Under the pieces are notes generated by a model. That model did no database searches. It was not told the DNA's origin and worked only from the letters and a program-made list of their open reading frames with translations. DNA of 32,000 nucleotides from NCBI RefSeq assembly GCF_000008565.1, contig NC_000958.1:90001-122000 (forward strand). The letters run 5' to 3'. Below, piece after piece: positions 2,098-32,000 of this stretch. The position numbers and the translations under genes were made by a program. Source of the DNA: Deinococcus radiodurans R1 = ATCC 13939 = DSM 20539. Its GTDB lineage: Bacteria > Deinococcota > Deinococci > Deinococcales > Deinococcaceae. Numbering within the stretch: the stretch's first letter is position 1; each line of letters begins with the position of its first letter.

Positions 2098-4577
2098 TCA
2101 GCCCCGGACCAGGGCGCGCACGGCAGCGGCGTCGGTCTGGGTCAGCGCCTGCGCGGCGAGCTGCTGCAAGTCCTGGCTGGAGCGCCCCCGCAGCGCGGCC
2201 TTCACGGCAGCGACCTGCGGCGTGCTCACCGACAGTTCCTTCACGCCCAGGCCGGTCAGCACCAGCGCCCCCACGTCGTCGCCCGCTGCGCCGCCGCACA
2301 CGCCGACCCACTTGCCGTGACGCTGCGCCGCGTTCACCGTCCGCTTGATGAGCCACAGGACGGCGGGATGCATCGCGTCGGTCTGCCGAGCGAGCTGCGG
2401 GTGCAGGCGGTCCATCGCCAGGGTGTACTGCGTCAGGTCGTTGGTGCCCACGCTGAAAAAGTCCACCTCGGGCGCGAGCGCCTCAGCCAGCAGCGCCGCC
2501 GAGGGCACCTCGATCATCACGCCGAGCGGGATGTGCGGGGCACCGACTTCGGCACGCACCTCATCCAGAATGGCGCGGGCACGGCGGAAGTCTTCGAGCG
2601 TGGCGATCATCGGGAACATGACGTGGACGTTGGGATGGTCCTTCGCCACCCGCGCAATCGCCCGCAGTTGCGGCAGGAAGAGGTCGGGCCGCTCGAAACA
2701 CAGCCGGATGCCGCGCATCCCCAGAAACGAGTTGTCCTCGCGCGCCAGTCCCAGGTAAGGCACTTCCTTGTCGCCGCCGATGTCGAGCGTGCGGATAATC
2801 AGTGGGCGCTCTCCCAGCGCCGCCGCCATCGCGCGGTATTCCTGCTCTTGGTTGGCCTCGCTCGGGGCGCTGTCGCGTTCCAGAAAGAGAAACTCGGTGC
2901 GCATCAGGCCCACGCCCTCGGCCCCGGCGTCGAGCGCCCCGGCAGCGTCCGCCGCCCGGTTGATGTTGGCGGCGATTTCGACCCGCACGCCGTCGCGGGT
3001 GCCGCCCGGCTGGTGGCGCGCGGCGCGGGCGGCTTCGCGCTCGGCGGTGAGCACGGCCATGCGCTCGCGGGCGGCCTGCACGTCATTCTCTGAAGGGTTG
3101 AGGTAGAGCCGCCCCGCCGAGCCGTCCAGAATCGCCAGGGTTCCGTCGGGCACCTCCAGCACGCCAGCTCCCGCCGCCACGATGGCGGGCAGCCCCAGCC
3201 CCCGCGCGATGATGGCGGTGTGGCTGGTCGGCCCGCCCTGCGCGGTGGCAAAGCCCAGCAGGGTATCGGGGCCGAGGCGGGCGGTGTCACTCGGCGTGAG
3301 GTCGGGAGCGAGCAGGATGACCGGCGCCGCGCCCGTCTGTACGGTGTCTTCACCCAAGCCCAGCAGGTGACGCAGCACCCGGCGCTGCACGTCGCCGAGG
3401 TCGCTGGCACGGCCCGCGAGCACCGGGTCGTCGAGCTTTTGCAGCTGCGCGATGCGCTCGTTCGTCGCCTGCTGGTACGCCCAGGCGGGGCCGTGGCCGT
3501 CGAGGATGCGCGACACGGCGTCCTGTACGGTCCCTTCGTCGGCGAGCAGTTCCTTGTGCGCCGCGAAAATGGCGGCCTTGTCGGCGCCGAAGCGGGCGTG
3601 CACGTCGGCCATCATGCTGTCGAGGTCGGCGGCGGCGGCTTGCAGGGCGGCGTCGAGCTGCGCGGCGCCCTGGGCCGGGTCGGCGGGCTCGTCGGTGACG
3701 GTCAGGGACCGTTGCAGATGCTGGCGGGTGGTGCCGACCACCAGCCCGTCGGCGGCGCCCACGCCTTCCAGCGCCGCGCCGACTTGCTGCGGAACCCAGT
3801 CGGGCGTGCGCGTGGTGGGAGGGGCGGCGGCCTGCGGCGCGGCGGCGCTCAGGTCGTCTCCCAGCCCGGACTGAATGGCGTCCACCAGCGGCCTGAGCAA
3901 CGCCTGCTGGTCGGTGCTGACGGTGAGCGGCGTGCCCCGCGTCAGGCCCAGGCTGAGCAGTTCCATCAGTTTGGTCGCGTCTGCCGAGCGCCCGTCGTCC
4001 CGGGTCAGCCGCGCTTTGGCGCCCGCTTTTTTGACCATCCCGGCAAGCAGGGTCGCGGGGCGGGCGTGCAGCCCCTGTGGGTTGGGCAACGTGACCTGTG
4101 CCGAATACGGCAGGCCCGGAGCCGCCGCCGCAGCTGCGACGGGCCGCTCGCCGGTCAGCGCCTCGATGAGGTCTCCGGCGTCGGTGGTGGTCCACAACCG
4201 CTCGACCAGGGCCTCGTCGCCCAGCACGCGGGTCAGGCGGCGCAAGATTTGCAGGTGTTCGTCGCTCGCGGCGGCAATCCCGACCACCAGATGCACCGGG
4301 CCGTCGGCGTCCTCGCCCCACTCCACGCCTGCGGCAGTTGCAACACGGCGATGCCGGTCTGACGAATGAGGTGACGCGACTCGGGCGTGCCGTGCGGAAT
4401 GGCGATGCCGTTGCCGAGATACGTGTTCGCTTGCGTCTCACGGGCGTACATGCCCTGCACGTAGGCCGGGTCCACGTTGCCGTTCGCGGCCAGCAGCCCC
4501 GCGACCTGCGCGATGGCGTCTGCCTTGTCGGCGGCCTGCGCCCCCACTTTGACGAGCTGTTTCGGAAGTTCAATCAT
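2098..4577 (-). CDS. fruB: Multiphosphoryl transfer protein EIIA(Fru)-HPr-Enzyme I, interrupted by an apparent 1-nt frameshift near 4327-4332
   Basis: EIIA-Fru (MIELPKQL...[12 protein letters not shown]) lies in ORF 4233-4577. An HPr-like module ([12 protein letters not shown]) and Enzyme I ([32 protein letters not shown]) lie in ORF 2098-4326. The two frames overlap and differ by one base. The expected CAG-GGC-GTG-GAG-TGG reads CAGGCGTGGAGTGG. Confidence 0.85.
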
Positions 4578-5723: not shown

Positions 5724-6482
5724 TTACCCAGCCGTCAGCACATAAGCCGGCTGCGCGCCCCGCCGAAAGTCGCAGACCCGGTAGCCGCGCCCGAACAGCG
5801 CGTGAAATGCCCCCCGAGTCTGCTGGCGCCAGGTCACGGCCTGCTCGGGATGCTCGTCGAGAAGTCCCGGCAGGTCGGCGGGAATGTGCAGCAACACGGC
5901 GGGCGCTTCCTCCGCTCCTGGCCGCCAGTCTCCCGTTCGGGGGTCGTTGATGGCCGGGAGCTCGGCGTCCTGCGGCGGACGGGCAGGCAGACTCCCCGGC
6001 GTCCACACGGCGACGAGGCGGTCGGAGGCAATGCCCGCGTTGATGCCGCCCATTTCGCCGTAGAAATCGTCGATGTACGTGGTGGCGAATGCCCCCAAGC
6101 GGTGGATGTTGAGCTGGGCGTTGATGGCCCGCAGCGGGTCGTAGGTCCACTCGATTTGAGTGATGCCCCGCTCCCGGCCCCACTCGGCCTGAAACTGCTT
6201 GAGCTTTACGGCCAGGCCGGTTCCGCGCCAGGCCGGATGCACCGCCAACAGGTGCGAGTGCTGCACATGGCTCTGGGCTGTGGGCAAGCCGACCACCAGG
6301 CCGACGAGTTCGCCCGCATCGCTGCTGAAGGCGCCGGCCACCAGGCCACCGATATGCTCCAGCGCCCGCATGGCGTCCCGGGGAAAAATATCGCGTTCCG
6401 AGCCGCCCCACACGAGAAATTGCAGGTCTTCGGCGGCCAGGAGTTCGGCGGTGCCCCGGAGCTCACGAACCCGGGCCTTCAT
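5724..6482 (-). CDS. GNAT-like acyl-CoA N-acyltransferase
   Basis: Core HLLAVHPAWRGTGLAVKLKQFQ carries an R-x-x-G-x-A CoA-binding loop. ATG 6482 overlaps the upstream gene's stop as ATGA (6479-6482). The ORF-track start at 6509 is an alternative. Confidence 0.7.
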   Translation of the reverse strand: MKARVRELRGTAELLAAEDLQFLVWGGSERDIFPRDAMRALEHIGGLVAGAFSSDAGELVGLVVGLPTAQSHVQHSHLLAVHPAWRGTGLAVKLKQFQAEWGRERGITQIEWTYDPLRAINAQLNIHRLGAFATTYIDDFYGEMGGINAGIASDRLVAVWTPGSLPARPPQDAELPAINDPRTGDWRPGAEEAPAVLLHIPADLPGLLDEHPEQAVTWRQQTRGAFHALFGRGYRVCDFRRGAQPAYVLTAG

Positions 6483-7356
6483 TTGCACCGGATGTCCTGA
6501 CCGAACCACTGCGCGCTGAGCTTGGCATAGGTGCCGTCGGCCATGACCTTGCTCAGCGCCTGGTTGAGGGCGTCGTGCAGGGTCTTGTTGCCTTTGGCGA
6601 CGGCGCCTGCGTTGCGCTCCTTAGAAATCGCCTCGCCGATCACCACTTTGTCTTGCAATTTCGCCTGCTTGAGCATGTAGGCCACCACCGGGCCGTCCCT
6701 TTCGTCTTCAAGAATTCGCGGCCGCAATTAACCCTCACTAAAGGGATCACCACTTTGTCTTGCAATTTCGCCTGCTTGAGCATGTAGGCCACCACCGGGC
6801 CGTTGCTCGACCAGGCGTCCACCCGCCCCGACATCAGGGCCGTGAGCACGGTCTGGTCGTTGGGATAGGTCCGCACGTCCGCGATGCCGGGAATCTGGCG
6901 CAACACGGGCAACTGCGCGGTGCCCACCTGACTGCCCACACTTTTGCCCCTGAGCGCGGCGCGGGTCGTCGGTCCACCCTTTTTCGCCACGATGTTGACC
7001 GTGGAGCAGTAATGGGGCTTCAAGAAGTCCACCGCTTTTTCCCGCTCGGGCGTGATGGCGTGAGAAGCGAGCACCGCGTCGTAACGCCCCTGGTTCAGGC
7101 CGATGAGCAGGGTGTCGAAAGGCTGCGTCACCCACTCCACCTTGACGCCCAGCGTGCGGCCCAGGGCGTTGCCGAGGTCGATTTCAAAGCCCACCAGCTG
7201 CTTGCCGGCATACGCGTTGAAGGGCGGAAAAGTCCCTTCGGTCGCCAGGTGCAGGGTGCCGGAGTCCTTGATTTGCTGCCAGGTGCGCGGCGCAGCGGAG
7301 GCGGTGGTGAGGGTCAAGCAAGCAAGGGCGGCGAGGACAGCGTAGGAACGGTTCAT
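6479..7356 (-). CDS. Polar amino-acid ABC-type solute-binding protein (family 3), reading frame broken by a vector-derived artefact
   Basis: Signal peptide MNRSYAVLAALACLTLTTASAAP, then LHLATEGTFPPFNAY and FEIDLGNAL. The last ~60 aa (GEAISKERNAGAVAKGNKTLHDALNQALSKVMADGTYAKLSAQWFGQD) continue in ORF 6479-6727 once 107 bp (6697-6803) are removed. Confidence 0.85.
6638..6696. repeat. 59-bp direct repeat, copy 1 (identical to 6745-6803)
   Basis: GATCACCACTTTGTCTTGCAATTTCGCCTGCTTGAGCATGTAGGCCACCACCGGGCCGT occurs twice, 59/59 identical, 107 bp apart. Both copies start at a GATC. Confidence 0.95.
6697..6748. other. Cloning-vector sequence: pBR322 tail, EcoRI, NotI, T3 promoter, BamHI/Sau3AI junction
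   Basis: CCCTTTCGTCTTCAAGAATTC (pBR322 sequence running into its EcoRI site) + GCGGCCGC (NotI) + AATTAACCCTCACTAAAGG (T3 promoter) + GATC. This is the layout of pWE15/SuperCos-type cosmid cloning sites. Confidence 0.9.
6745..6803. repeat. 59-bp direct repeat, copy 2
   Basis: Identical to 6638-6696. It begins at the GATC fused to the T3 promoter end. Confidence 0.95.
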
Positions 7357-9584: not shown

Positions 9585-10214
9585 CTACAGCAGCCCCGCC
9601 CGCAGCGCCTTGACTGCCGCCTGGGTGCGGTCGGCGGCCTGCAACCTGTGCAGGATGTCCTGAATATGCAGTTTCACGGTGCTGACGCTGACGCCGAGCG
9701 CTTCGGCGATGTCCTTGTTGGGCAGCCCGTCGGCAATCAGGCGCAGGATGTCGAGTTCGCGGGGGGTCAGGGGCGAGTGGGCTTCAGGCATCCGCACGCC
9801 GCCGAGGACGTGGTGCGCCACCTGCGGATCGAGGTAGGCGCTGCCCGCCGCCGCCGCGCGAATCGCCAGCAGCAGCAGGTCCGGGCTGGCCGATTTGAGG
9901 CAGTAGGCGTCCGCGCCCGAGGCGAGCGAAGCGAAGACTTCCTCGCGCAGGTCGTGGGCGGTGAGCATCACGATGCGGACCCCCGGCCAGCGGCGCTTGA
10001 TTTCGCGCGCTGTGGCGATGCCGTCCATGCCCGGCAGGCCGATATCCACCACCGCCACGTCCACTGGCCGCCCAGTGAGGACTTCCAATGCCTCCTCCCC
10101 GCTGCGGGCCTCGGCCACCACGCGCAGGTCGGGTTCGAGGTTCAGCGTGGCGCGCAGCCCGTCGCGGGTAAAGGCGTGGTCCTCAACGAGCAGGATGCCC
10201 ACCGGGTCAGGCAT
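9585..10214 (-). CDS. Response regulator, NarL/FixJ (LuxR-type HTH) family
   Basis: Receiver domain (ILLVEDHAFTRDGL, VDVAVVDIGLPGMDG) plus LuxR HTH (TPRELDILRLIADGLPNKDIAEALGVSVSTVKLHIQDIL). The start overlaps the upstream kinase stop by 8 nt. Confidence 0.9.
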   Translation of the reverse strand: MPDPVGILLVEDHAFTRDGLRATLNLEPDLRVVAEARSGEEALEVLTGRPVDVAVVDIGLPGMDGIATAREIKRRWPGVRIVMLTAHDLREEVFASLASGADAYCLKSASPDLLLLAIRAAAAGSAYLDPQVAHHVLGGVRMPEAHSPLTPRELDILRLIADGLPNKDIAEALGVSVSTVKLHIQDILHRLQAADRTQAAVKALRAGLL

Positions 10215-11754
10215 GGGGCGCCTCGGGCAGGGTCAGCACGAACTGGCTCTGCGCCCGCGCCGTGCGGCGGTAACGCACCGTGCCGCCGTGCGCCTCGGCA
10301 ATCCGGCGGGTGAGGTACAGGCCCAGCCCGCTGCCGCTGCCCGCCCCCGCGCCCCGGAAGCGCTGAAAGAGCCGCGCCTGCTGCTCGGCGGGAATGCCGG
10401 GGCCGCTGTCTTGCACGATGAAGGTGACCTCGTCGCCGTCGCCGGTCAGAAAGAGCGTGACTTCCCCGCCCGGCGGGCTGAACTTGATGGCGTTGTCGAG
10501 CAGGTTCTGTACCGCGCGCCGCAGGTCGTGCTTGCGTCCCAGCACGGTCACGCCGCTGAGATTTGTTTCGACGGTGACGTTCCTGGCCTCGGCGCGGGGC
10601 CGCAGGTCGCCGGCCACGCTCAGGACCACGGCGCGCAGCGGCACCGGCTCGCGCTCCTCGTCCTCGCCGCTCTCGAACTTGGCGACGCTCAGGAGCTGGT
10701 CGGCGAGGTCGAGCAGCGTTTCGTTGGCCTGGAGCCCGTTTTCCAGCGTGGCGCGGTAGGCGGGCGGCAACTCGCCGTAAGCGCCTCTCAGGGCGGCTTT
10801 CATGTTCATGGCGTTCGCCAGCAGCGGCGTGCGCAGGTCATGCGAGAAAGCGTACACGAGGTCGCGCAGCAGTTCACCGCGCTCGGCGAGTTGCTGGCGG
10901 TTTTGCCGCAGGTCGTCGAGCAGCGCGGTGCGCTCCAGCAGCGGTTGCAGGGTGCGGACGGCGAGGCTGGTCACGCCCGGCGCGCTGTGCGGCGAGTTCA
11001 GGATGAGCAGCAAGTCGCCCTCGGTCGGGCGACGCAGGCGGGCGAGGTGGACGTTGCCGCCCTCGGTCGCCCACACGTCCCCGGCCCCCACCGGATGCGC
11101 CAGAAATTCCAGCGGAATGCGGGTGTTCAGGCGGCTGGGGCGCTCGGCGGCAGGCAGGTCGGGCGCGAGCACCAGCGCGTAGGGCTGCGTCAGCACCGCC
11201 TTGTCCACCGCGCCGATTTCCACGCTGCTCGCCCCGGTCAGGCGCTGCAAGGCCGCCGCCGCCCGCTCCACGAACTCGGCCTGCCCCAGTGGGCCACCCA
11301 GGTCCTCGGCGAGTTGCCGCCGGGCTTTTTCGCGGGCGAGTTGGTGCTCCTCTTCCTTGAGCGCCGCCGCCTGCTCGGAGGCTTCGCGGGCGCGGGTGGA
11401 GAGGTAGCCCACCAGCACCACCGCCAGAATGCTCACGGCGCGGTTGGCGAAGTGGTAGCCCCCCACGCCGTCGCGCGAGCCGTTCCAGAAGCCGGCGACC
11501 ACGTTCGCCAGCACCGCCAGCGCGGTGAGTTGCCAGACCGTCTTTTTCGACGTGCCGAGCGCCGCGAACGCGACCGACGCGCTGAGCACCGTGCCGAGCG
11601 CGAACGACGCGGGCGTCAGGAGGTCGAGCAGCACCACGACCACCAGCAGCGAGAGGGACACCCCCCACACCACCCCGTCGCTCAGGGGAAACTGCGGCGG
11701 CGGGAACAGCTCCCGCACGAATGCTCCTGTGCTTTCCGGCCAGCGCGTCCTCAT
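10207..11754 (-). CDS. Membrane sensor histidine kinase (N-terminal multi-TM module, GAF-like middle region, HisKA + HATPase)
   Basis: H-box FSHDLRTPL, N-box NLLDNAIKF, G-boxes DSGPGIP and GSGLGLYL. There are three to four N-terminal hydrophobic helices. I prefer ATG 11754 (MRTRWPE) over the ORF-track start at 11856. Confidence 0.85.
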   Translation of the reverse strand: MRTRWPESTGAFVRELFPPPQFPLSDGVVWGVSLSLLVVVVLLDLLTPASFALGTVLSASVAFAALGTSKKTVWQLTALAVLANVVAGFWNGSRDGVGGYHFANRAVSILAVVLVGYLSTRAREASEQAAALKEEEHQLAREKARRQLAEDLGGPLGQAEFVERAAAALQRLTGASSVEIGAVDKAVLTQPYALVLAPDLPAAERPSRLNTRIPLEFLAHPVGAGDVWATEGGNVHLARLRRPTEGDLLLILNSPHSAPGVTSLAVRTLQPLLERTALLDDLRQNRQQLAERGELLRDLVYAFSHDLRTPLLANAMNMKAALRGAYGELPPAYRATLENGLQANETLLDLADQLLSVAKFESGEDEEREPVPLRAVVLSVAGDLRPRAEARNVTVETNLSGVTVLGRKHDLRRAVQNLLDNAIKFSPPGGEVTLFLTGDGDEVTFIVQDSGPGIPAEQQARLFQRFRGAGAGSGSGLGLYLTRRIAEAHGGTVRYRRTARAQSQFVLTLPEAPHA

Positions 11755-16235: not shown

Positions 16236-16314
16236 CCCCTCACCCTTCCGCCGCTGGCGCGGCTCCCTCCCTCTCCCAAGGGGAGAGGGCCCTTGCAAAG
16301 CGAGGGGTGAGGGG
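16236..16314. repeat. Nested palindromic (REP/MITE-like) intergenic element between kdpA and kdpC
   Basis: Outer arms are CCCCTCACCC (16236-16245) and GGGTGAGGGG (16305-16314). The inner hairpin is CCCTCTCCC-AAG-GGGAGAGGG (16269-16289). It starts immediately after the kdpA stop. Confidence 0.6.
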
Positions 16315-27654: not shown

Positions 27655-28896
27655 TTAGCCGCTCAGCTCCCCCTCCAAAGTGTCCCAGGTCAGCCGGTGC
27701 GCCTCGCCCACTTCCGGGAATTCCAGCAGCCGGAGCTGGTCGGCGAGGACTGCGCTGTTCACCTGCCGCTCTCTCCCGCTGATGCGTGCTCCGAGCTGAC
27801 CGGGCGGCGTCCACAGCACGTGCAGCTCGGTCAGAGCGCCGTAGTCGTAGCCCAGCCCCAGCACCTGGGCGCGCTGGCTGCGGCGCAGGGTGGTCGCGTC
27901 CCAGACGGCGTGGCGCCCCCGGCGCAGGGCCTCGCGCAGTTGCTCGCGGGCGGCTTGCAATACCTGACCGTTCACCCGCTGGTCACTCGCGTTTTTGCCG
28001 AGCTTGGCCCGCAGCGCGTCCAGACTGATGAGGTCGGCGTCCGGGACGCTGTGGGCATACGTGCTTTTGCCGCTGCCCGAGGGACCGCACAGCACCGTTA
28101 GGCGCGGAAACCCGCTGCGGGCGGCCTCCTGCACTCGGGCCACCGCCTCGTGCGGCGTGTGAATCACCCCGGCCTCCCAATCCTGAATTCCCCGGCCCAC
28201 CGCCAGCGCGAGCAACTCGGGCGGCGCGCCGGGCAGCAGGGCCGCAATCTCCGCGCGAAAGGCGGCGTAGGGGTCCGTGACGTTCCAGACGCCGAGGTCA
28301 CGGGCAAGCAGTTCCAGATAGTCGGCGGTGTCCTCTCCCTTCCTGCCGTCGCCGCCGCGCACTTCGCGGCCCCGCGCGTCGGCTTTCGCCAGCCGCACGA
28401 GCAGGGGCAACGGCACCTGCCGCGCCAGGGCGAAGACGCCGCGCCCCAGTTCACTTTCGGCGGCGCGGTGCAGGCTGTGATGATGCGCCACCAGTTCCAG
28501 CACGGTCAAAATCAGCCTGGGAGCAAGGCCGGTGTCGAGCAGGCGGTACGCGAGATAGTCCCGCCCCCGCCGCGCGTGCTGGCGCGACCGCAAGCGTATT
28601 TGCCCGCTGCTCCCCTCGGGCTCCTCGCGGGTGGTCAGCGCCTTGCCGATGTCGTGCAGGGCGGCGGCCAGCAGCAGGGCCGCGCGGTCAAAGGGGTCGA
28701 GGCCTTCCGAGAGTTCGTGCGCCCGCGCCAGTACGAGCGCCGAGTGGGTCGCCACGTCGCCCTCGGCGTGCCACTCGGGGTCCTGCGGGGTGTGCGGCAA
28801 CTCGCCCAGCAGCGGCAACACCGGGCGCAGTTCGGCGCTCAGCTCGTCGAAAGTGACGGGCTCAGGCCGCGTCAGGAGGTAGATGAGGGCAGACAT
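27655..28896 (-). CDS. HD-domain phosphohydrolase fused to P-loop polynucleotide-kinase-like domain (PNKP-like end-healing enzyme)
   Basis: 413 aa. N-terminal HD motifs (HAEGDVATHS, LHDIGK, VAHHHSL); C-terminal Walker A LCGPSGSGKST and a kinase-like fold. GGAG SD. The start overlaps the PARG stop by 25 nt. It matches what I recall as DR_B0098. Confidence 0.9.
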   Translation of the reverse strand: MSALIYLLTRPEPVTFDELSAELRPVLPLLGELPHTPQDPEWHAEGDVATHSALVLARAHELSEGLDPFDRAALLLAAALHDIGKALTTREEPEGSSGQIRLRSRQHARRGRDYLAYRLLDTGLAPRLILTVLELVAHHHSLHRAAESELGRGVFALARQVPLPLLVRLAKADARGREVRGGDGRKGEDTADYLELLARDLGVWNVTDPYAAFRAEIAALLPGAPPELLALAVGRGIQDWEAGVIHTPHEAVARVQEAARSGFPRLTVLCGPSGSGKSTYAHSVPDADLISLDALRAKLGKNASDQRVNGQVLQAAREQLREALRRGRHAVWDATTLRRSQRAQVLGLGYDYGALTELHVLWTPPGQLGARISGRERQVNSAVLADQLRLLEFPEVGEAHRLTWDTLEGELSG

Positions 28897-29729
28897 AAGG
28901 ACTCCAGCTCGCGACGAAACGCGCCGAGCGTCGGGTGCTGAGGATGATTGTCGAGGACGGCGAAAGTAACGTGCTCAAAAGCGCCCTGGGCTTCCCCTTC
29001 CAGCAGCTCGCGGAAGGTGCGTGCCACGCCCGCCGGGTCGTTGCGGAACACGCCGCAGCCCCACGCTCCCAGCACCAGATGCGTCTGCTCCATCCAGGCG
29101 GCGACGCCCAGAACCCGCCGGGCCCGTTCCCGCAGTGTCGGCAGCACCTGCGGCAGTTGCTCAGGACGGCTCTGGGCCACTGCTCCAGCGTTCGGGGCCG
29201 GCGCGGTGATAATGTTCACCGGCACCGGCGCGGGCAACAGTTGCCCCGCGTCATCCCGGAAAATGGGGACCTGCGGGCTGTAAATGAGGTGGTCGGTATA
29301 GAGCGCCGAGTGGGACTGGCGGTTGACCGCGTAGTAAGGCTCGGCCTGGGGTGAGGTCAGACTGAAATAGAGCCCACTGCCACGGCACAGGTCTTCTTCC
29401 TGGGCCTGCGCGCCGCCCAGAAAACCGCCACCGGGGTTTTTGGCCGAGGCGAAGTTGAGCGCTGCGAGTGCTGACGCCTTTTCACGCAGGCGACGCGCCG
29501 CCGCAAACGTCGTCTCAGACGTGACCTCACAGGTCGTCTGAAAGCTGCCCCGGCGACGGCGTAAGGCTTCTCGTAGGTCTTCTCCCTGCTCCGGCGTGAA
29601 CAGCCGCGTGCCTTGCCGCATTGCCGCGAGACCCGGCAACCTCACCGGACCCGACCCGGTGACGGACTGGCCCGTGCGGAGGATGTTCAGCGTGTCCTGG
29701 GCCTGTTCGGTACGGTTTTTGCGGTTCAT
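28872..29729 (-). CDS. Bacterial-type poly(ADP-ribose) glycohydrolase (macrodomain, DUF2263/TIGR02452-like)
   Basis: Start MNRKNRTEQ at 29729 overlaps the ligase stop as ATGA. The PARG signature GGG-X7-QEE is present (ALNFASAKNPGGGFLGGAQAQEEDLCRGSGLY). The longer ORF-track form (to 29981) overlaps ligB and is rejected. Confidence 0.9.
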   Translation of the reverse strand: MNRKNRTEQAQDTLNILRTGQSVTGSGPVRLPGLAAMRQGTRLFTPEQGEDLREALRRRRGSFQTTCEVTSETTFAAARRLREKASALAALNFASAKNPGGGFLGGAQAQEEDLCRGSGLYFSLTSPQAEPYYAVNRQSHSALYTDHLIYSPQVPIFRDDAGQLLPAPVPVNIITAPAPNAGAVAQSRPEQLPQVLPTLRERARRVLGVAAWMEQTHLVLGAWGCGVFRNDPAGVARTFRELLEGEAQGAFEHVTFAVLDNHPQHPTLGAFRRELESLCLPSSTS

Positions 29730-30358
29730 GACTGCTCCTGGCGCTTCAGACCGTTCGGCTCCACCGGCTGACTCAGCCAGTGCTGATCGGTCTGCACGTG
29801 CCCGCGCCGCACCCACTTGGCGACCTTGCGCCCGAAGTCGGCGTAGGGAATGGCGGCGGTCACGCGCACCACGTAGCCTTCCATCCGTTCCGGGTCGGGG
29901 TCCAGGGCCTGAAGGGCGGCCTCGTCCCAGGGGCCGCGGTACAGCTCGCGCGGGGTGGGCAAAGAGAGCCGCTCGGCCCATCCGCGCACCTCGTCCCAGG
30001 GCCGCGAGACGTTAAGGTCGTCCCAGACGCTGAAGAGGTAAAAATAGCCGTCCAGATCGTCGTATTTCAAACTATGGACGGCGTAGACGTTCTCGCCGCA
30101 AAATCGCCAGCCGAGCGGGATGTCGTGGGCGACGCGGCCCCGCTCGGCCTTGACCCAGGTCCGTGAGGGGTGCGGGCGCATGTCGAGGCTGCGGGCGTGC
30201 AGGTCATCACGGTAGAGGCTGGTGTTTTCGCCGTCGAGCTTCTCGGTCACGACGACCTCCTTGCCGATAAATCCGCTCAGCGACGTGATGCGGCGGTCAT
30301 CGTTCTGGAGGCCCGGCGACCAGGGCAGGTGGGGGATGGAAGGGTATTTGACTCGCAT
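29726..30358 (-). CDS. ligB: Minimal ATP-dependent nucleic-acid ligase (nucleotidyltransferase domain only), LigB/DdrP
   Basis: 210 aa with motif I EKLDGEN, a motif III-like FCGENVYA, YFYLFSVWD and a motif V-like EGYVVRV...KWVR. No OB domain is present. First gene of the three-gene operon. Confidence 0.9.
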   Translation of the reverse strand: MRVKYPSIPHLPWSPGLQNDDRRITSLSGFIGKEVVVTEKLDGENTSLYRDDLHARSLDMRPHPSRTWVKAERGRVAHDIPLGWRFCGENVYAVHSLKYDDLDGYFYLFSVWDDLNVSRPWDEVRGWAERLSLPTPRELYRGPWDEAALQALDPDPERMEGYVVRVTAAIPYADFGRKVAKWVRRGHVQTDQHWLSQPVEPNGLKRQEQS

Positions 30359-30409
30359 ACAGGATCACTGCTGCGTAGAGTAGAGAAAACCTGAGGGTGA
30401 CGGCATCGG

Positions 30410-30443
30410 CCTGACGGTCAGGTGGGGTAAGCGCTGTGGCTTA
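30410..30443. promoter_or_regulatory. Two adjacent palindromes upstream of ligB (candidate operators)
   Basis: CCTGAC-G-GTCAGG (30410-30422) and TAAGC-GCTGTG-GCTTA (30428-30443), 52-85 nt upstream of the ligB ATG (30358). Confidence 0.3.
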
Positions 30444-30479
30444 GCTGTCCGGTCGCCGACTTGTGCGGTCCCCACGAAA

Positions 30480-30522
30480 GAAAAGCGAGCGGCAAGGACA
30501 CGTCCCCATCCACCCGCTTTTC
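30480..30522 (-). terminator. Possible terminator of the amine oxidase remnant
   Basis: On the minus strand, GAAAAGCG...CGCTTTTC (8-bp stem, long structured loop) is followed by TTTCG. It lies 29 nt downstream of the stop at 30551. Confidence 0.3.
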
Positions 30523-30550
30523 TAAGCTGTATCGGTTCTTCTTAGCCTGA

Positions 30551-31860
30551 CTAGCCTTCGTTGGGCGGCGTCTCAATCGGCAGAACGTCATCACCAACCT
30601 GCGTGGTGCCCGAGCAGCAACTGCCGCCTGACGCCGGCGCCCCGTCCTGCACGCTGTGGGCGTTGCGGTCACGCGGCAGGTTCATGGCCGGGTTCTGGCT
30701 GAAAAAGCCGTTGGGCTTGAGCATGAATCCGGCGTATTCCACCGGCATGATCGGGAAGTCTTCGGGCTTGCAGACGTGGGTGTGGCCGAAGGTGTGCCAG
30801 ACGATGAGATCTTCGTTCTGGATGTTGCGGTTTTGCTGCACGTACTTGGGCAGGCCGTCCCCGCCGGCATGCTGGTTGGGGTAGTCGCCCGAGGCGTACT
30901 TCTCGTTTTCATGGCACGGCGTCACCCAGATGTGCTTGGTGGCGAAGCCGCCGCGGTGCCGGACGGTCGAGCCTTCGCGCGCGAGCATCAGCGGGCTGGG
31001 GTTGATGATCAGTTTGTAGCCCGTGGGATTGCCCACCGAGTTCTTGACGTTGGGATTGATGATTTTCCAGTAGCGCCCGGTCTTGCCGTCCGCCTCGCGG
31101 CAGGCGTCGAGTTCGCGGGTCAGGGTGCGGCTAGTCGTATGAAAGACGTTGCCGTAGGGGTTGGTGTCGCTCCAGGGCGCCGGCTGAAACTCGTGTTCAG
31201 TGACCGAGTTCTGAACGCCGTCGACCATCATATCGAGCCGGGCATTGAAAAAATGCTGGTGGGTCGGGCCGCCCAGCCCCTCGTCGACCATGCCGCCGTA
31301 GGGGTAAGGCTGACCCGGTTCGATGGCCGCGGTCTGGATGATGCCGGTCAGCTTGGCTTCCAGCTGAATCGTGCCGTCCTGGTAGAGGTACCAGTAAAAG
31401 CCGTAATCGTAATTGCCCAATAGTCTGTGCAGTTTTGGAGTTCAGCTACCCAAGCTGCGATAAACACGGCGTTTTTTGCCCCTCCCCCTTGCGGGGGAGG
31501 TTGGGAGAGGGGAGCGCAGGCAGCGTCCTAAACAGCAAAATCTTGATCGCCTTCTCTAACGACCACAAAACTGCACGAACCATTGAATTGCCGACGGTGG
31601 CGAAAAACGAGATGACCAGCCGGCGCGAGCGGCGCATCTCGTGCATGCCGACCCGGAACTCGTTGTGCTTCCAGAGGGTGCCGTAGTCCTCCTCGTGCAT
31701 GCACACGGCGTTTTTCATGATGAACGGCTGCCCGAAATCGTCAGCGGCAGGAATGTCGAAGTAGCGAATCAGGCCCAGGCAATCGCAGCCGAGTTCCAGT
31801 TGATTGGCGACTTTGCCCAGGCCGTATTCGCCCGCGTCGAAGGCACTTTTCCAGCTCAGT
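30551..31860 (-). pseudogene. Copper (topaquinone) amine oxidase, C-terminal catalytic domain only; interrupted by a MITE and 5'-truncated
   Basis: The upstream part reads SWKSAFDAGEYGLG...CMHEEDYGTLWKH...RRLVISFFATVGN (31860-31586). The downstream part reads (G)NYDYGFYWYLYQDGTIQLE...HQHFF...WHTFGHTH (31417-30551). It is collinear with Arthrobacter-type amine oxidase. The frame closes at the stop at 31873-31875, and none of the three frames upstream encodes the expected VPYGDP region. Confidence 0.9.
31418..31585. mobile_element. 168-bp MITE-like element with 20-bp terminal inverted repeats and 7-bp target-site duplication
   Basis: TIRs are CAATAGTCTGTGCAGTTTTG (31418-31437) and the reverse complement of 31566-31585, CAATGGTTCGTGCAGTTTTG (17/20 identical). 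The flanking direct repeat AATTGCC sits at 31411-31417 and 31586-31592. There is no ORF. An internal hairpin CCTCCCCC-TTGC-GGGGGAGG lies at 31481-31500. Confidence 0.8.
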
Positions 31861-32000
31861 AGGTGACAACTTCACTTTCAGCCGCTCCTGGCGGGCAAAA
31901 AGCCTGGATGAACACCTCCAGGATCGCCATGAACTGTTGGGGTTTCCACCGGAGGGCATCCACGAGATGCTGAGCACCGTGCCGCACCAGACTGACCGCT
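31861..32000 (-). other. Foreign sequence abutting the truncated amine oxidase; 3' end of an ORF open to the window edge (possible IS end)
   Basis: Amine oxidase homology stops abruptly at about 31860. The minus-strand frame reads ...AVSLVRHGAQHLVDALRWKPQQFMAILEVFIQAFCPPGAAESEVVTY, stopping at 31859-31857. I recognise no family. Confidence 0.25.

What the first reader, a model, noticed from the sequence alone, without database searches (positions are those of the whole stretch)
6638..6803. Cosmid cloning-vector sequence and a 59-bp duplication embedded in a chromosomal gene (assembly artefact)
Seen directly: 6697-6748 reads CCCTTTCGTCTTCAAGAATTC GCGGCCGC AATTAACCCTCACTAAAGG GATC. That is the pBR322 tail up to EcoRI, a NotI site, the T3 RNA polymerase promoter and a BamHI/Sau3AI junction, which is the cloning-site layout of pWE15/SuperCos-type cosmids. 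The genomic sequence immediately after the GATC (6745-6803) is a perfect 59-bp repeat of 6638-6696, which also begins at a GATC. The net 107-bp insertion is not a multiple of 3. It splits the solute-binding protein into ORFs 6640-7356 and 6479-6727, and deleting it restores one uninterrupted gene. The simplest explanation is an untrimmed cosmid end-read of a Sau3AI partial-digest insert that was appended instead of overlapped during assembly. This is not biology. It matters because it creates a false pseudogene and a false phage promoter, and it lowers trust in the other frameshifts in this record.
Basis: seen in the sequence. Interest (0 to 1): 0.7.

Follow-up and report, generated by a model that had tools for sequence, protein, structure and literature searches.

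The report
Cosmid vector remnant in genome record
A 107-base block inside a transporter gene of the 1999 Deinococcus radiodurans R1 megaplasmid sequence is leftover cloning-vector DNA plus a duplicated overlap, an error of the record rather than biology, and it has produced a false broken gene and a chimeric protein entry in RefSeq.

Summary
Window 6638-6696 and 6745-6803 are identical 59-mers, separated by 48 bp (6697-6744).

The 48 bp plus the following GATC (6697-6748) match, 52 of 52 bases, the end of a vector-only contig in an unrelated myxobacterial assembly. That contig reads TEM-1 bla, pBR322 bla-upstream region, EcoRI, NotI, T3 promoter, BamHI.

The window is megaplasmid MP1 of the 1999 D. 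radiodurans R1 record, positions 90001-122000. All 14 D. radiodurans MP1 records in PLSDB lack the block. So do three metagenome or mock-community contigs and two contigs 96-98% identical to the window.

Deleting the 107 bp gives a 256-aa SBP_bac_3 protein identical to one found on 296 public contigs. The chimeric 238-aa ORF is on none, yet it exists as RefSeq WP_164928034.1.

A 2024 paper lists this site as a deletion between long repeats (ESDSA or recombination, with a misassembly caveat). It did not recognise the 48 bp as vector.

The only correction is that a T3-primed end-read cannot contain its own primer site and the sequence upstream of it. The read must have crossed the vector-insert junction from elsewhere. 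Biological interest is low; curation value is real.

The parts
6638..6696 (.). First copy of the 59-bp duplicated genomic segment. This is genuine megaplasmid sequence and starts at a GATC site. In the proposed reconstruction it is the end of the left-hand contig.
   Evidence: It aligns to the single copy in L004-L007 and L011-L013.
6697..6744 (+). 48 bp of E. coli cosmid-vector sequence: pBR322-derived tail 6697-6711, EcoRI 6712-6717, NotI 6718-6725, T3 promoter/primer sequence 6726-6744. It has no counterpart in any independent D. radiodurans sequence.
   Evidence: Together with GATC it is 52/52 identical to L001 2-53. L001 also carries TEM-1 bla. It is absent from 14/14 PLSDB MP1 records and from L002-L013. 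Its GC content is 50% against 66% for the window.
6745..6748 (.). GATC vector-insert junction: a BamHI half-site fused to a genomic Sau3AI/MboI site (window GGATCA, vector GGATCC).
   Evidence: GATC occurs only 47 times in 32 kb, so a duplication starting exactly on one by chance has a probability of about 0.0015 per position.
6745..6803 (.). Second copy of the 59-bp segment. It is the start of the cosmid insert, which continues to the right.
6479..7356 (-). Disrupted gene DR_B0078, an amino-acid ABC transporter substrate-binding protein (SBP_bac_3). The true gene is 6804..7356 joined to 6479..6696, which is 771 nt and 256 aa.
   Evidence: The restored translation equals P0121, a D. radiodurans protein on 296 contigs. 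Pfam PF00497 matches it full length, profile 1-132 of 132, 132 bits. The intact gene is annotated as E5E91_RS15505 / WP_027480350.1 in CP038665.
6640..7356 (-). Chimeric 238-aa ORF: 204 genuine residues followed by a 34-residue tail (PLVRVNCGREFLKTKGTARWWPTCSSRRNCKTKW). The tail is read from the vector and then from the first 59-mer copy out of frame. It is deposited as RefSeq WP_164928034.1.
   Evidence: It is encoded on no contig of the assembly collection.
6479..6727 (-). 82-aa ORF whose first 11 codons lie in vector sequence. The rest is the genuine C-terminus of the binding protein.
   Evidence: PF00497 profile positions 97-132.

Best explanation
The block is an error of the 1999 sequence record, not a feature of the organism.

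Shown: the window is D. radiodurans R1 megaplasmid MP1. The 48 bp are the cloning-site flank of a pBR322-based cosmid of the pWE15/SuperCos type, ending at its BamHI site. The genome resumes at a GATC, and the next 59 bp repeat the 59 bp that precede the vector string. No independent sequence of this replicon has the block. Removing it restores the exact protein found elsewhere.

Inferred: a cosmid carried a Sau3AI/MboI partial-digest insert starting at window 6745 and running rightwards. A read crossing its vector-insert junction kept 48 untrimmed vector bases. Those bases formed the left end of one contig. The neighbouring contig ended at 6696, so it truly overlapped by 59 bp. The non-matching vector overhang hid that overlap, and the two contigs were abutted instead of merged. 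A single chimeric subclone read would give the same sequence.

The consequences are a false frameshift, which the original annotation called authentic; a false T3 promoter; and a chimeric RefSeq protein.
For: Vector identity: 52/52 match to L001, whose upstream sequence is the pBR322 bla-upstream region and TEM-1 bla. The two halves of the string also match engineered or pBR322-derived plasmids separately.

Source of the window: neighbour protein accession AAF12532.1 and D. radiodurans names. Replicon sizes are 177.3-177.4 kb. Window 6697 corresponds to MP1 96697 in Table 4 of PMC11276467.

Absence elsewhere: L004-L007 split into two alignment blocks that overlap by exactly 59 bp on the locus side, and the alignment shows a single copy. 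All 14 PLSDB MP1 records match in two pieces covering 91% of the query and span 444 bp, which is 551 - 107. L011-L013 behave the same way.

Lineage: records and contigs that share the window's T allele at 9823 also lack the block. These are CP015083, CP031502, the ENA mock-community contig and the JGI contigs. The ENA contig comes from a mock community containing 'D. radiodurans R1'.

Proteins: the restored protein is an exact match on 296 contigs. The chimeric ORF is on none. The junction string is absent from JGI metagenome contigs.
Against: No raw traces or assembly files of the 1999 project could be examined, so the route by which the artefact arose is inferred. I could not find documentation that a pWE15/SuperCos library was used for this genome; the 1999 paper is not held. 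No sequence explicitly labelled ATCC BAA-816 was compared here, and PMC11219805 states that resequencing of BAA-816 is still needed. The other (T7-side) end of the putative cosmid insert is not in the window. It would be expected 30-45 kb to the right, beyond the window's end.
Confidence: 0.95

Rival explanations
1. The sequenced culture (ATCC BAA-816) really carries this insert. It would be a remnant of laboratory DNA, such as a cosmid or plasmid integrated by homologous 'duplication insertion' in this naturally transformable species, with almost all of the vector lost later.
For: Vector flanked by direct repeats of the target is the topology of a Campbell-type integration (established knowledge). 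No sequence labelled BAA-816 was available for comparison.
Against: Only 48 bp of vector are present. There is no bla, ori, cos or marker between the repeats or elsewhere in the window. The repeat starts exactly at the library cloning junction (GATC), which fits a clone end rather than a recombination product. Sequences sharing the window's allele at the one lineage-informative SNP lack the block, including an Illumina assembly of a mock community containing 'R1' DNA. The chimeric product appears on none of the contigs in the collection, while the intact one appears on 296.
Confidence: 0.03
2. The 1999 structure is ancestral, and the other laboratory lineages lost 48 bp plus one repeat copy by recombination between 59-bp direct repeats (ESDSA, homologous recombination or SSA). 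This is how the site is classified in Table 4 of Zahradka, Zahradka and Repar 2024, which adds a caveat about misassembly.
For: The geometry, unique DNA flanked by direct repeats with one copy missing in the other genomes, is what such a deletion would leave (PMC11276467).
Against: The 'unique DNA' is E. coli cloning vector, which cannot be ancestral Deinococcus sequence. The two-copy state breaks a conserved gene. Relatives 96-98% identical to the window (L002, L003) have a single copy, and orthologues in other Deinococcus species are uninterrupted proteins of about 250-259 aa.
Confidence: 0.01
3. This is a variant of the artefact that is nested inside the best explanation and does not compete with its verdict. 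Instead of two contigs being abutted, a single chimeric shotgun subclone was read through and accepted as consensus in a low-coverage region. The subclone would be a co-ligation of a genomic fragment ending at 6696 with a cosmid fragment starting 48 bp upstream of the BamHI junction.
For: It explains both arbitrary break points (6696|6697 and the start of the vector piece) in one step. There is no microhomology at the left junction, as expected for blunt co-ligation of sheared fragments.
Against: Nothing in the sequence distinguishes it from a mis-join, and no traces are available.
Confidence: 0.3

Closest known systems
pWE15 / SuperCos 1 cosmid cloning site (EcoRI-NotI-T3 promoter-BamHI-T7 promoter-NotI-EcoRI on a pBR322-derived backbone). 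The vector names are from my own knowledge (Wahl et al. 1987; Evans et al. 1989).
   Same: The order and exact sequence of the pBR322 tail, EcoRI, NotI, T3 and the BamHI half-site are the same. The match to an independent vector contig that also carries TEM-1 bla is 52/52.
   Different: Only 48 bp are present. pWE15, SuperCos 1 and their derivatives cannot be told apart from this stretch, and no reference vector library (UniVec) was available.
Vector contamination of public sequence records (the class of error screened by VecScreen/UniVec and NCBI FCS-adaptor)
   Same: Untrimmed cloning-vector bases were deposited as organism sequence.
   Different: The contamination is internal to a finished replicon rather than terminal. 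It is accompanied by a 59-bp duplicated overlap, and it has propagated into a RefSeq protein (WP_164928034.1).
Deletions between long direct repeats in D. radiodurans laboratory lineages (PMC11276467, Table 4, event 4)
   Same: This is the same site: 48 bp unique to genome-1999 at MP1 96697, 59-bp flanking repeats, gene DR_B0078.
   Different: That paper attributes the site to ESDSA or homologous recombination, with a misassembly caveat, and never mentions vector (0 occurrences). Here the 48 bp are shown to be vector, which settles the matter in favour of an artefact.
Campbell-type 'duplication insertion' of plasmids in D. radiodurans
   Same: Foreign vector DNA lies between direct repeats of the target.
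   Different: There is no vector backbone or marker, the repeat is only 59 bp and starts at the library junction, and the structure is absent from all independent sequences.

Membership tests
pWE15/SuperCos-type cosmid vector sequence | Contiguous identity to an independent copy of the vector across the cloning-site flank | tested here: met
   Window 6697-6748 equals L001 53-2 at 52/52. L001 reads from the bla-upstream region through EcoRI, NotI and T3 to GGATCC and encodes TEM-1.
pWE15/SuperCos-type cosmid vector sequence | Site order EcoRI, NotI, T3 promoter, BamHI | tested here: met
   Direct reading gives EcoRI at 6712, NotI at 6718, T3 at 6726 and GGATC at 6743-6747.
pWE15/SuperCos-type cosmid vector sequence | Exact vector identity (cos sites, SV40 ori/neo cassette, T7 side of the polylinker) | not testable with these tools
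   No reference vector library is available. L001 is only 1277 bp (bla plus polylinker). The plasmid collection holds no whole-length match.
pWE15/SuperCos-type cosmid vector sequence | Second (T7-side) vector junction at the far end of the insert | tested here: inconclusive
   There is no T7 promoter and no second NotI site in the window. A 30-45 kb insert starting at 6745 would end beyond position 32000.
Assembly/cloning artefact (not present in the organism) | Absent from independent assemblies of the same replicon | tested here: met
   All 14 PLSDB MP1 records lack it. L004-L013 also lack it, including sequences that share the window's allele at 9823.
Assembly/cloning artefact (not present in the organism) | Removal restores a gene identical to independently observed sequence | tested here: met
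   The restored 256-aa protein equals P0121 exactly, which is on 296 contigs.
Assembly/cloning artefact (not present in the organism) | Junction lies at the restriction site used for library construction | tested here: met
   The insert starts at GATC fused to the BamHI half-site. GATC density is 0.0015 per bp.
Assembly/cloning artefact (not present in the organism) | Junction not reproduced by independent reads of the sequenced strain ATCC BAA-816 | tested here: inconclusive
   The junction is absent from JGI metagenome contigs, and the chimeric product is on no contig. An 'R1' mock-community assembly lacks the block. None of these is explicitly labelled BAA-816.
Assembly/cloning artefact (not present in the organism) | Original traces or assembly show the mis-join or a chimeric read | not testable with these tools
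   The 1999 traces and the 1999 paper are not held.
Genuine Campbell-type vector integration | Vector backbone or marker present between the duplicated target segments | tested here: not met
   Only 48 bp lie between the repeats. No other vector motif occurs in the 32 kb.
Genuine deletion between long direct repeats (ESDSA/HR) | DNA between the repeats is native genomic sequence, and the two-copy state is ancestral | tested here: not met
   The intervening DNA is vector. Relatives L002 and L003 (96-98% identical to the window) and orthologues in other species have a single copy and an intact gene.
SBP_bac_3 (PF00497) periplasmic amino-acid-binding proteins (the host gene) | Full-length match above the Pfam gathering score | tested here: met
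   The restored protein scores 132.1 bits against a cut-off of 26.4, covering profile positions 1-132 of 132. The chimeric ORF covers only positions 1-111.

The most novel reading that the evidence does not exclude
The block is physically present in the culture that was sequenced in 1999 (ATCC BAA-816). It would be a scar of laboratory DNA taken up by this naturally transformable bacterium, making BAA-816 an unrecognised engineered derivative with an inactivated amino-acid-binding protein.
Probability: 0.03. Interest if true: 0.3.

Novelty: not a real feature. Interest (0 to 1): 0.15.

Why it matters
The finding has no biological novelty, but it matters for curation.

1. DR_B0078 is not a pseudogene.
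2. RefSeq protein WP_164928034.1 is a chimera with a C-terminal tail read from the vector and from an out-of-frame repeat copy. It should be suppressed.
3. One of the four 'deletions between long direct repeats' reported in 2024 as possible footprints of D. radiodurans double-strand-break repair is a vector artefact. This weakens that category, and events 2 and 3 of the same table deserve the same check.
4. The T3 promoter at 6726 is not a phage promoter of the organism.
5. The case shows that vector screening can miss short internal vector stretches in finished genomes.

Tried and rejected
- A search of the 61-bp region against PLSDB plasmids found no whole-length match. It gave only separate hits to the pBR322 tail and the T3 part, so natural plasmids are not the source.
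- The PDB search with the neighbouring racemase hit a D. radiodurans paralogue and did not identify the organism. Cluster names and accessions did.
- Scans for the vector cloning-site string in viral contigs and JGI metagenome contigs found nothing. The only independent copy is L001, from the genome collection.
- Attempts to read White et al. 1999 and Makarova et al. 2001, and literature searches for Deinococcus with cosmid, pWE15 or SuperCos, gave no information on the libraries used.
- The supplements of PMC11219805 do not mention DR_B0078.
- The look-up of ORF 28872..29981(-) failed because the called gene uses a different start codon. As a result, window 29885-32000 was not compared with independent assemblies.
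- I considered a T3-primed end-read as the culprit and rejected it, because such a read cannot include its own primer site and the 29 bp upstream of it.

Full report
**1. The observation**

Window 6638-6696 and 6745-6803 are 100% identical 59-mers, both beginning with GATC and spaced 107 bp apart (family D1). No dinucleotide-preserving shuffle of the window produced two matches.

Between the copies lie 48 bp, CCCTTTCGTCTTCAAGAATTCGCGGCCGCAATTAACCCTCACTAAAGG. This string is unique in the window, with 0 matches expected by chance. It contains the window's only NotI site and its only T3 primer match. No T7, SP6 or M13 primer sites occur anywhere in the 32 kb. Its GC content is 50% against 66% for the window.

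On the minus strand the block splits a gene into a 238-aa ORF (6640..7356) and an 82-aa ORF (6479..6727). Deleting 107 bp, which is not a multiple of three, gives one 256-aa ORF.

**2. Is the 48 bp really vector?**

A scan of one genome per bacterial and archaeal species for GAATTCGCGGCCGCAATTAACCCTCACTAAAGGGATC found one hit. It lies at the extreme end of a 1277-bp contig of Archangium violaceum Cb vi76 (L001).

That contig is pure vector. It encodes TEM-1 beta-lactamase. It then reads through the classical pBR322 bla-upstream region (...ATAGGCGTATCACGAGGCCCTTTCGTCTTCAAGAATTC) into GCGGCCGC, AATTAACCCTCACTAAAGG and GGATCC. Window 6697-6748 matches it at 52 of 52 bases.

The match stops one base after GATC. 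The vector has GGATCC and the window has GGATCA, the expected hybrid site when a Sau3AI/MboI fragment is ligated into BamHI. GATC occurs only 47 times in the window, so the duplicated genomic segment starting exactly on one is not a coincidence.

The layout EcoRI-NotI-T3-BamHI on a pBR322 backbone is that of pWE15/SuperCos 1-type cosmids. That naming rests on my own knowledge, and no reference vector library was available to decide which one it is. Natural plasmids in PLSDB hold only the two halves separately.

**3. Where the window comes from**

- The restored protein's closest named relatives are Deinococcus proteins.
- The exact restored protein, and the exact neighbouring 395-aa enzyme, are recorded as D. 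radiodurans proteins. The neighbour carries accession AAF12532.1, which I recognise from my own knowledge as belonging to the original 1999 deposit.
- The replicons carrying this locus are 177.3-177.4 kb records described as plasmid pMP1.
- Table 4 of Zahradka, Zahradka and Repar 2024 (PMC11276467) lists, for 'genome-1999' (AE001826.1), 48 bp of unique DNA at megaplasmid position 96697. [quoted passage not shown]
- Window 6697 corresponds to 96697, so the window is MP1 positions 90001-122000 of the 1999 record.

**4. Independent sequences lack the block**

- Four essentially identical loci each align in two blocks, to window 12562-6745 and to window 6696-3269. These are an ENA metagenome contig, GCA_041878445, CP094464 and CP038665. 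The two blocks overlap by exactly 59 bp on the locus side, and nothing matches the 48 bp. The multiple alignment shows a single copy of the 59-mer running straight on.
- Two Logan contigs 96-98% identical to the window show the same pattern.
- All 14 D. radiodurans MP1 records in PLSDB match a 551-bp query in two pieces covering 91% of it, over 444 bp, which is 551 - 107.
- Two JGI contigs and further stretches of the ENA contig agree.
- The restored protein is an exact match to P0121, seen on 296 contigs from NCBI, JGI, ENA and Logan. It matches Pfam SBP_bac_3 over the full profile.
- The chimeric 238-aa product is on no contig of the collection, and the genome-to-vector junction string is in no JGI metagenome contig.

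**5. Could it be real in the strain that was sequenced?**

No sequence labelled ATCC BAA-816 was available, and PMC11219805 says that strain still needs resequencing. Three observations nevertheless argue against a real insert.

- The only lineage-informative SNP nearby is 9823: T in the window, C in the Orsay/Zagreb ATCC 13939 lineage, giving Q131R in a response regulator. CP015083, CP031502, the ENA contig and both JGI contigs share the window's T and still lack the block.
- The ENA contig comes from project PRJEB12287. That project sequenced the Shakya/Podar mock community, which lists 'Deinococcus radiodurans R1' with the 1999 genome size.
- A genuine Campbell-type integration would leave the vector backbone between the repeats. 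Here there are only 48 bp, and no other vector motif appears in the 32 kb.

I give the real-insert reading about 3%.

**6. The published interpretation**

[quoted passage not shown] The word 'vector' does not occur in that paper.

The vector identity of the 48 bp removes the ambiguity. E. coli cloning-vector sequence cannot be ancestral Deinococcus DNA that other lineages deleted. The single-copy state is also found in the two 96-98%-identical contigs, and orthologues in other species are intact.

**7. How it most likely arose (inferred)**

A cosmid insert began at the GATC at 6745 and extended rightwards. A read crossing the vector-insert junction retained 48 vector bases. That read cannot have been a T3-primed end-read, since such a read would not contain the T3 site and the 29 bp upstream of it. 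More likely it was a primer walk on cosmid template running out of the insert, or a shotgun subclone of the cosmid.

The contig to the left ended at 6696, so the true overlap was 59 bp. The non-matching 48-bp overhang prevented automatic merging, and the contigs were joined end to end. A single chimeric subclone read accepted as consensus would give the same sequence. The left junction shows no microhomology, which fits either route. The two routes cannot be separated without the traces.

**8. Consequences**

- The 1999 annotation called the frameshift authentic.
- The RefSeq re-annotation turned the 5' fragment into protein WP_164928034.1 (P0123). Its last 34 residues are read from the vector and from an out-of-frame repeat copy.

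**9. Other discrepancies in the window**

I compared window positions 1-29884 with independent assemblies. Only two further differences are shared by all of them.

- A missing C after 4329. Restoring it gives the exact 826-aa FruB-type PTS protein. PMC11219805 reports this gene as complete on resequencing.
- An extra C at 16290, between kdpA and kdpC.

Otherwise the record is very accurate in this region.

**10. Verdict**

This is not a real biological feature. Interest is low (0.15) and the value lies in curation.

Noticed in passing
window 4329/4330 (genes 2098..4326 and 3350..4573, minus strand): The window lacks one C that all 7 covering independent assemblies have. Inserting it fuses the two overlapping ORFs into the exact 826-aa PTS EIIA-HPr-EI (FruB) protein called in the other assemblies. 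PMC11219805 reports FruB (KDR_B0075) as complete on resequencing. This is a second frameshift error of the 1999 record.
   Followed up: yes
window 16290: The window has an extra C in a C-run relative to all 3 covering assemblies. The position falls between kdpA and kdpC, so no reading frame is affected. It is probably a base-calling error.
   Followed up: partly
window 9823 (response regulator 9585..10214, minus strand): There is a T/C difference giving Q131R. T is shared by the window, CP015083, CP031502 and the ENA/JGI contigs. C is found in 12 other MP1 records, including CP038665 and CP068793. It looks like a genuine polymorphism between laboratory lineages and is useful as a lineage marker.
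   Followed up: partly
window 6640..7356 (-) ; protein P0123: RefSeq WP_164928034.1 (238 aa, 'ABC transporter substrate-binding protein [Deinococcus radiodurans]') is the chimeric ORF, with a 34-residue tail read from the vector and from an out-of-frame repeat copy. It is known only from NCBI nr and is encoded on no contig of the collection.
   Followed up: yes
L001 1-1277 (NZ_JPMI01000116.1, Archangium violaceum Cb vi76 contig00122): This entire contig of a public myxobacterial genome assembly, a GTDB species representative, is cloning vector: TEM-1 bla, pBR322 sequence, EcoRI-NotI-T3-BamHI. It is vector contamination in a second, unrelated record.
   Followed up: partly
window ~11709-11722 (histidine kinase gene); L010/L013 (JGI 3300014786): One JGI contig lacks 14 bp (GCTCCCGCACGAAT) that the window and all the other covering loci have. 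This shortens the called kinase from 503 to 484 aa. It is either a variant or an assembly error in that sample only.
   Followed up: no
L006 (CP094464.1), corresponding to window 9511, 9766, 11464: This record has three private single-base deletions relative to every other sequence, and two genes are not called there. These are probably errors of that assembly.
   Followed up: no
outside the window: genome-1999 chromosome I 1960529 and chromosome II 288082 (PMC11276467 Table 4, events 2-3): Two further 'unique DNA flanked by long repeats' items are listed in the 1999 record: 24 bp with 526-bp repeats in DR_1939, also annotated 'authentic frameshift', and 917 bp with 600-bp repeats in DR_A0268/9. 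They have the same geometry and may be similar mis-joins.
   Followed up: no
PLSDB record NZ_CP015083.1: The 2016 PacBio version of this megaplasmid is 203,183 bp, while the other 13 records are 177.3-177.6 kb. The extra 26 kb is unexplained here.
   Followed up: no
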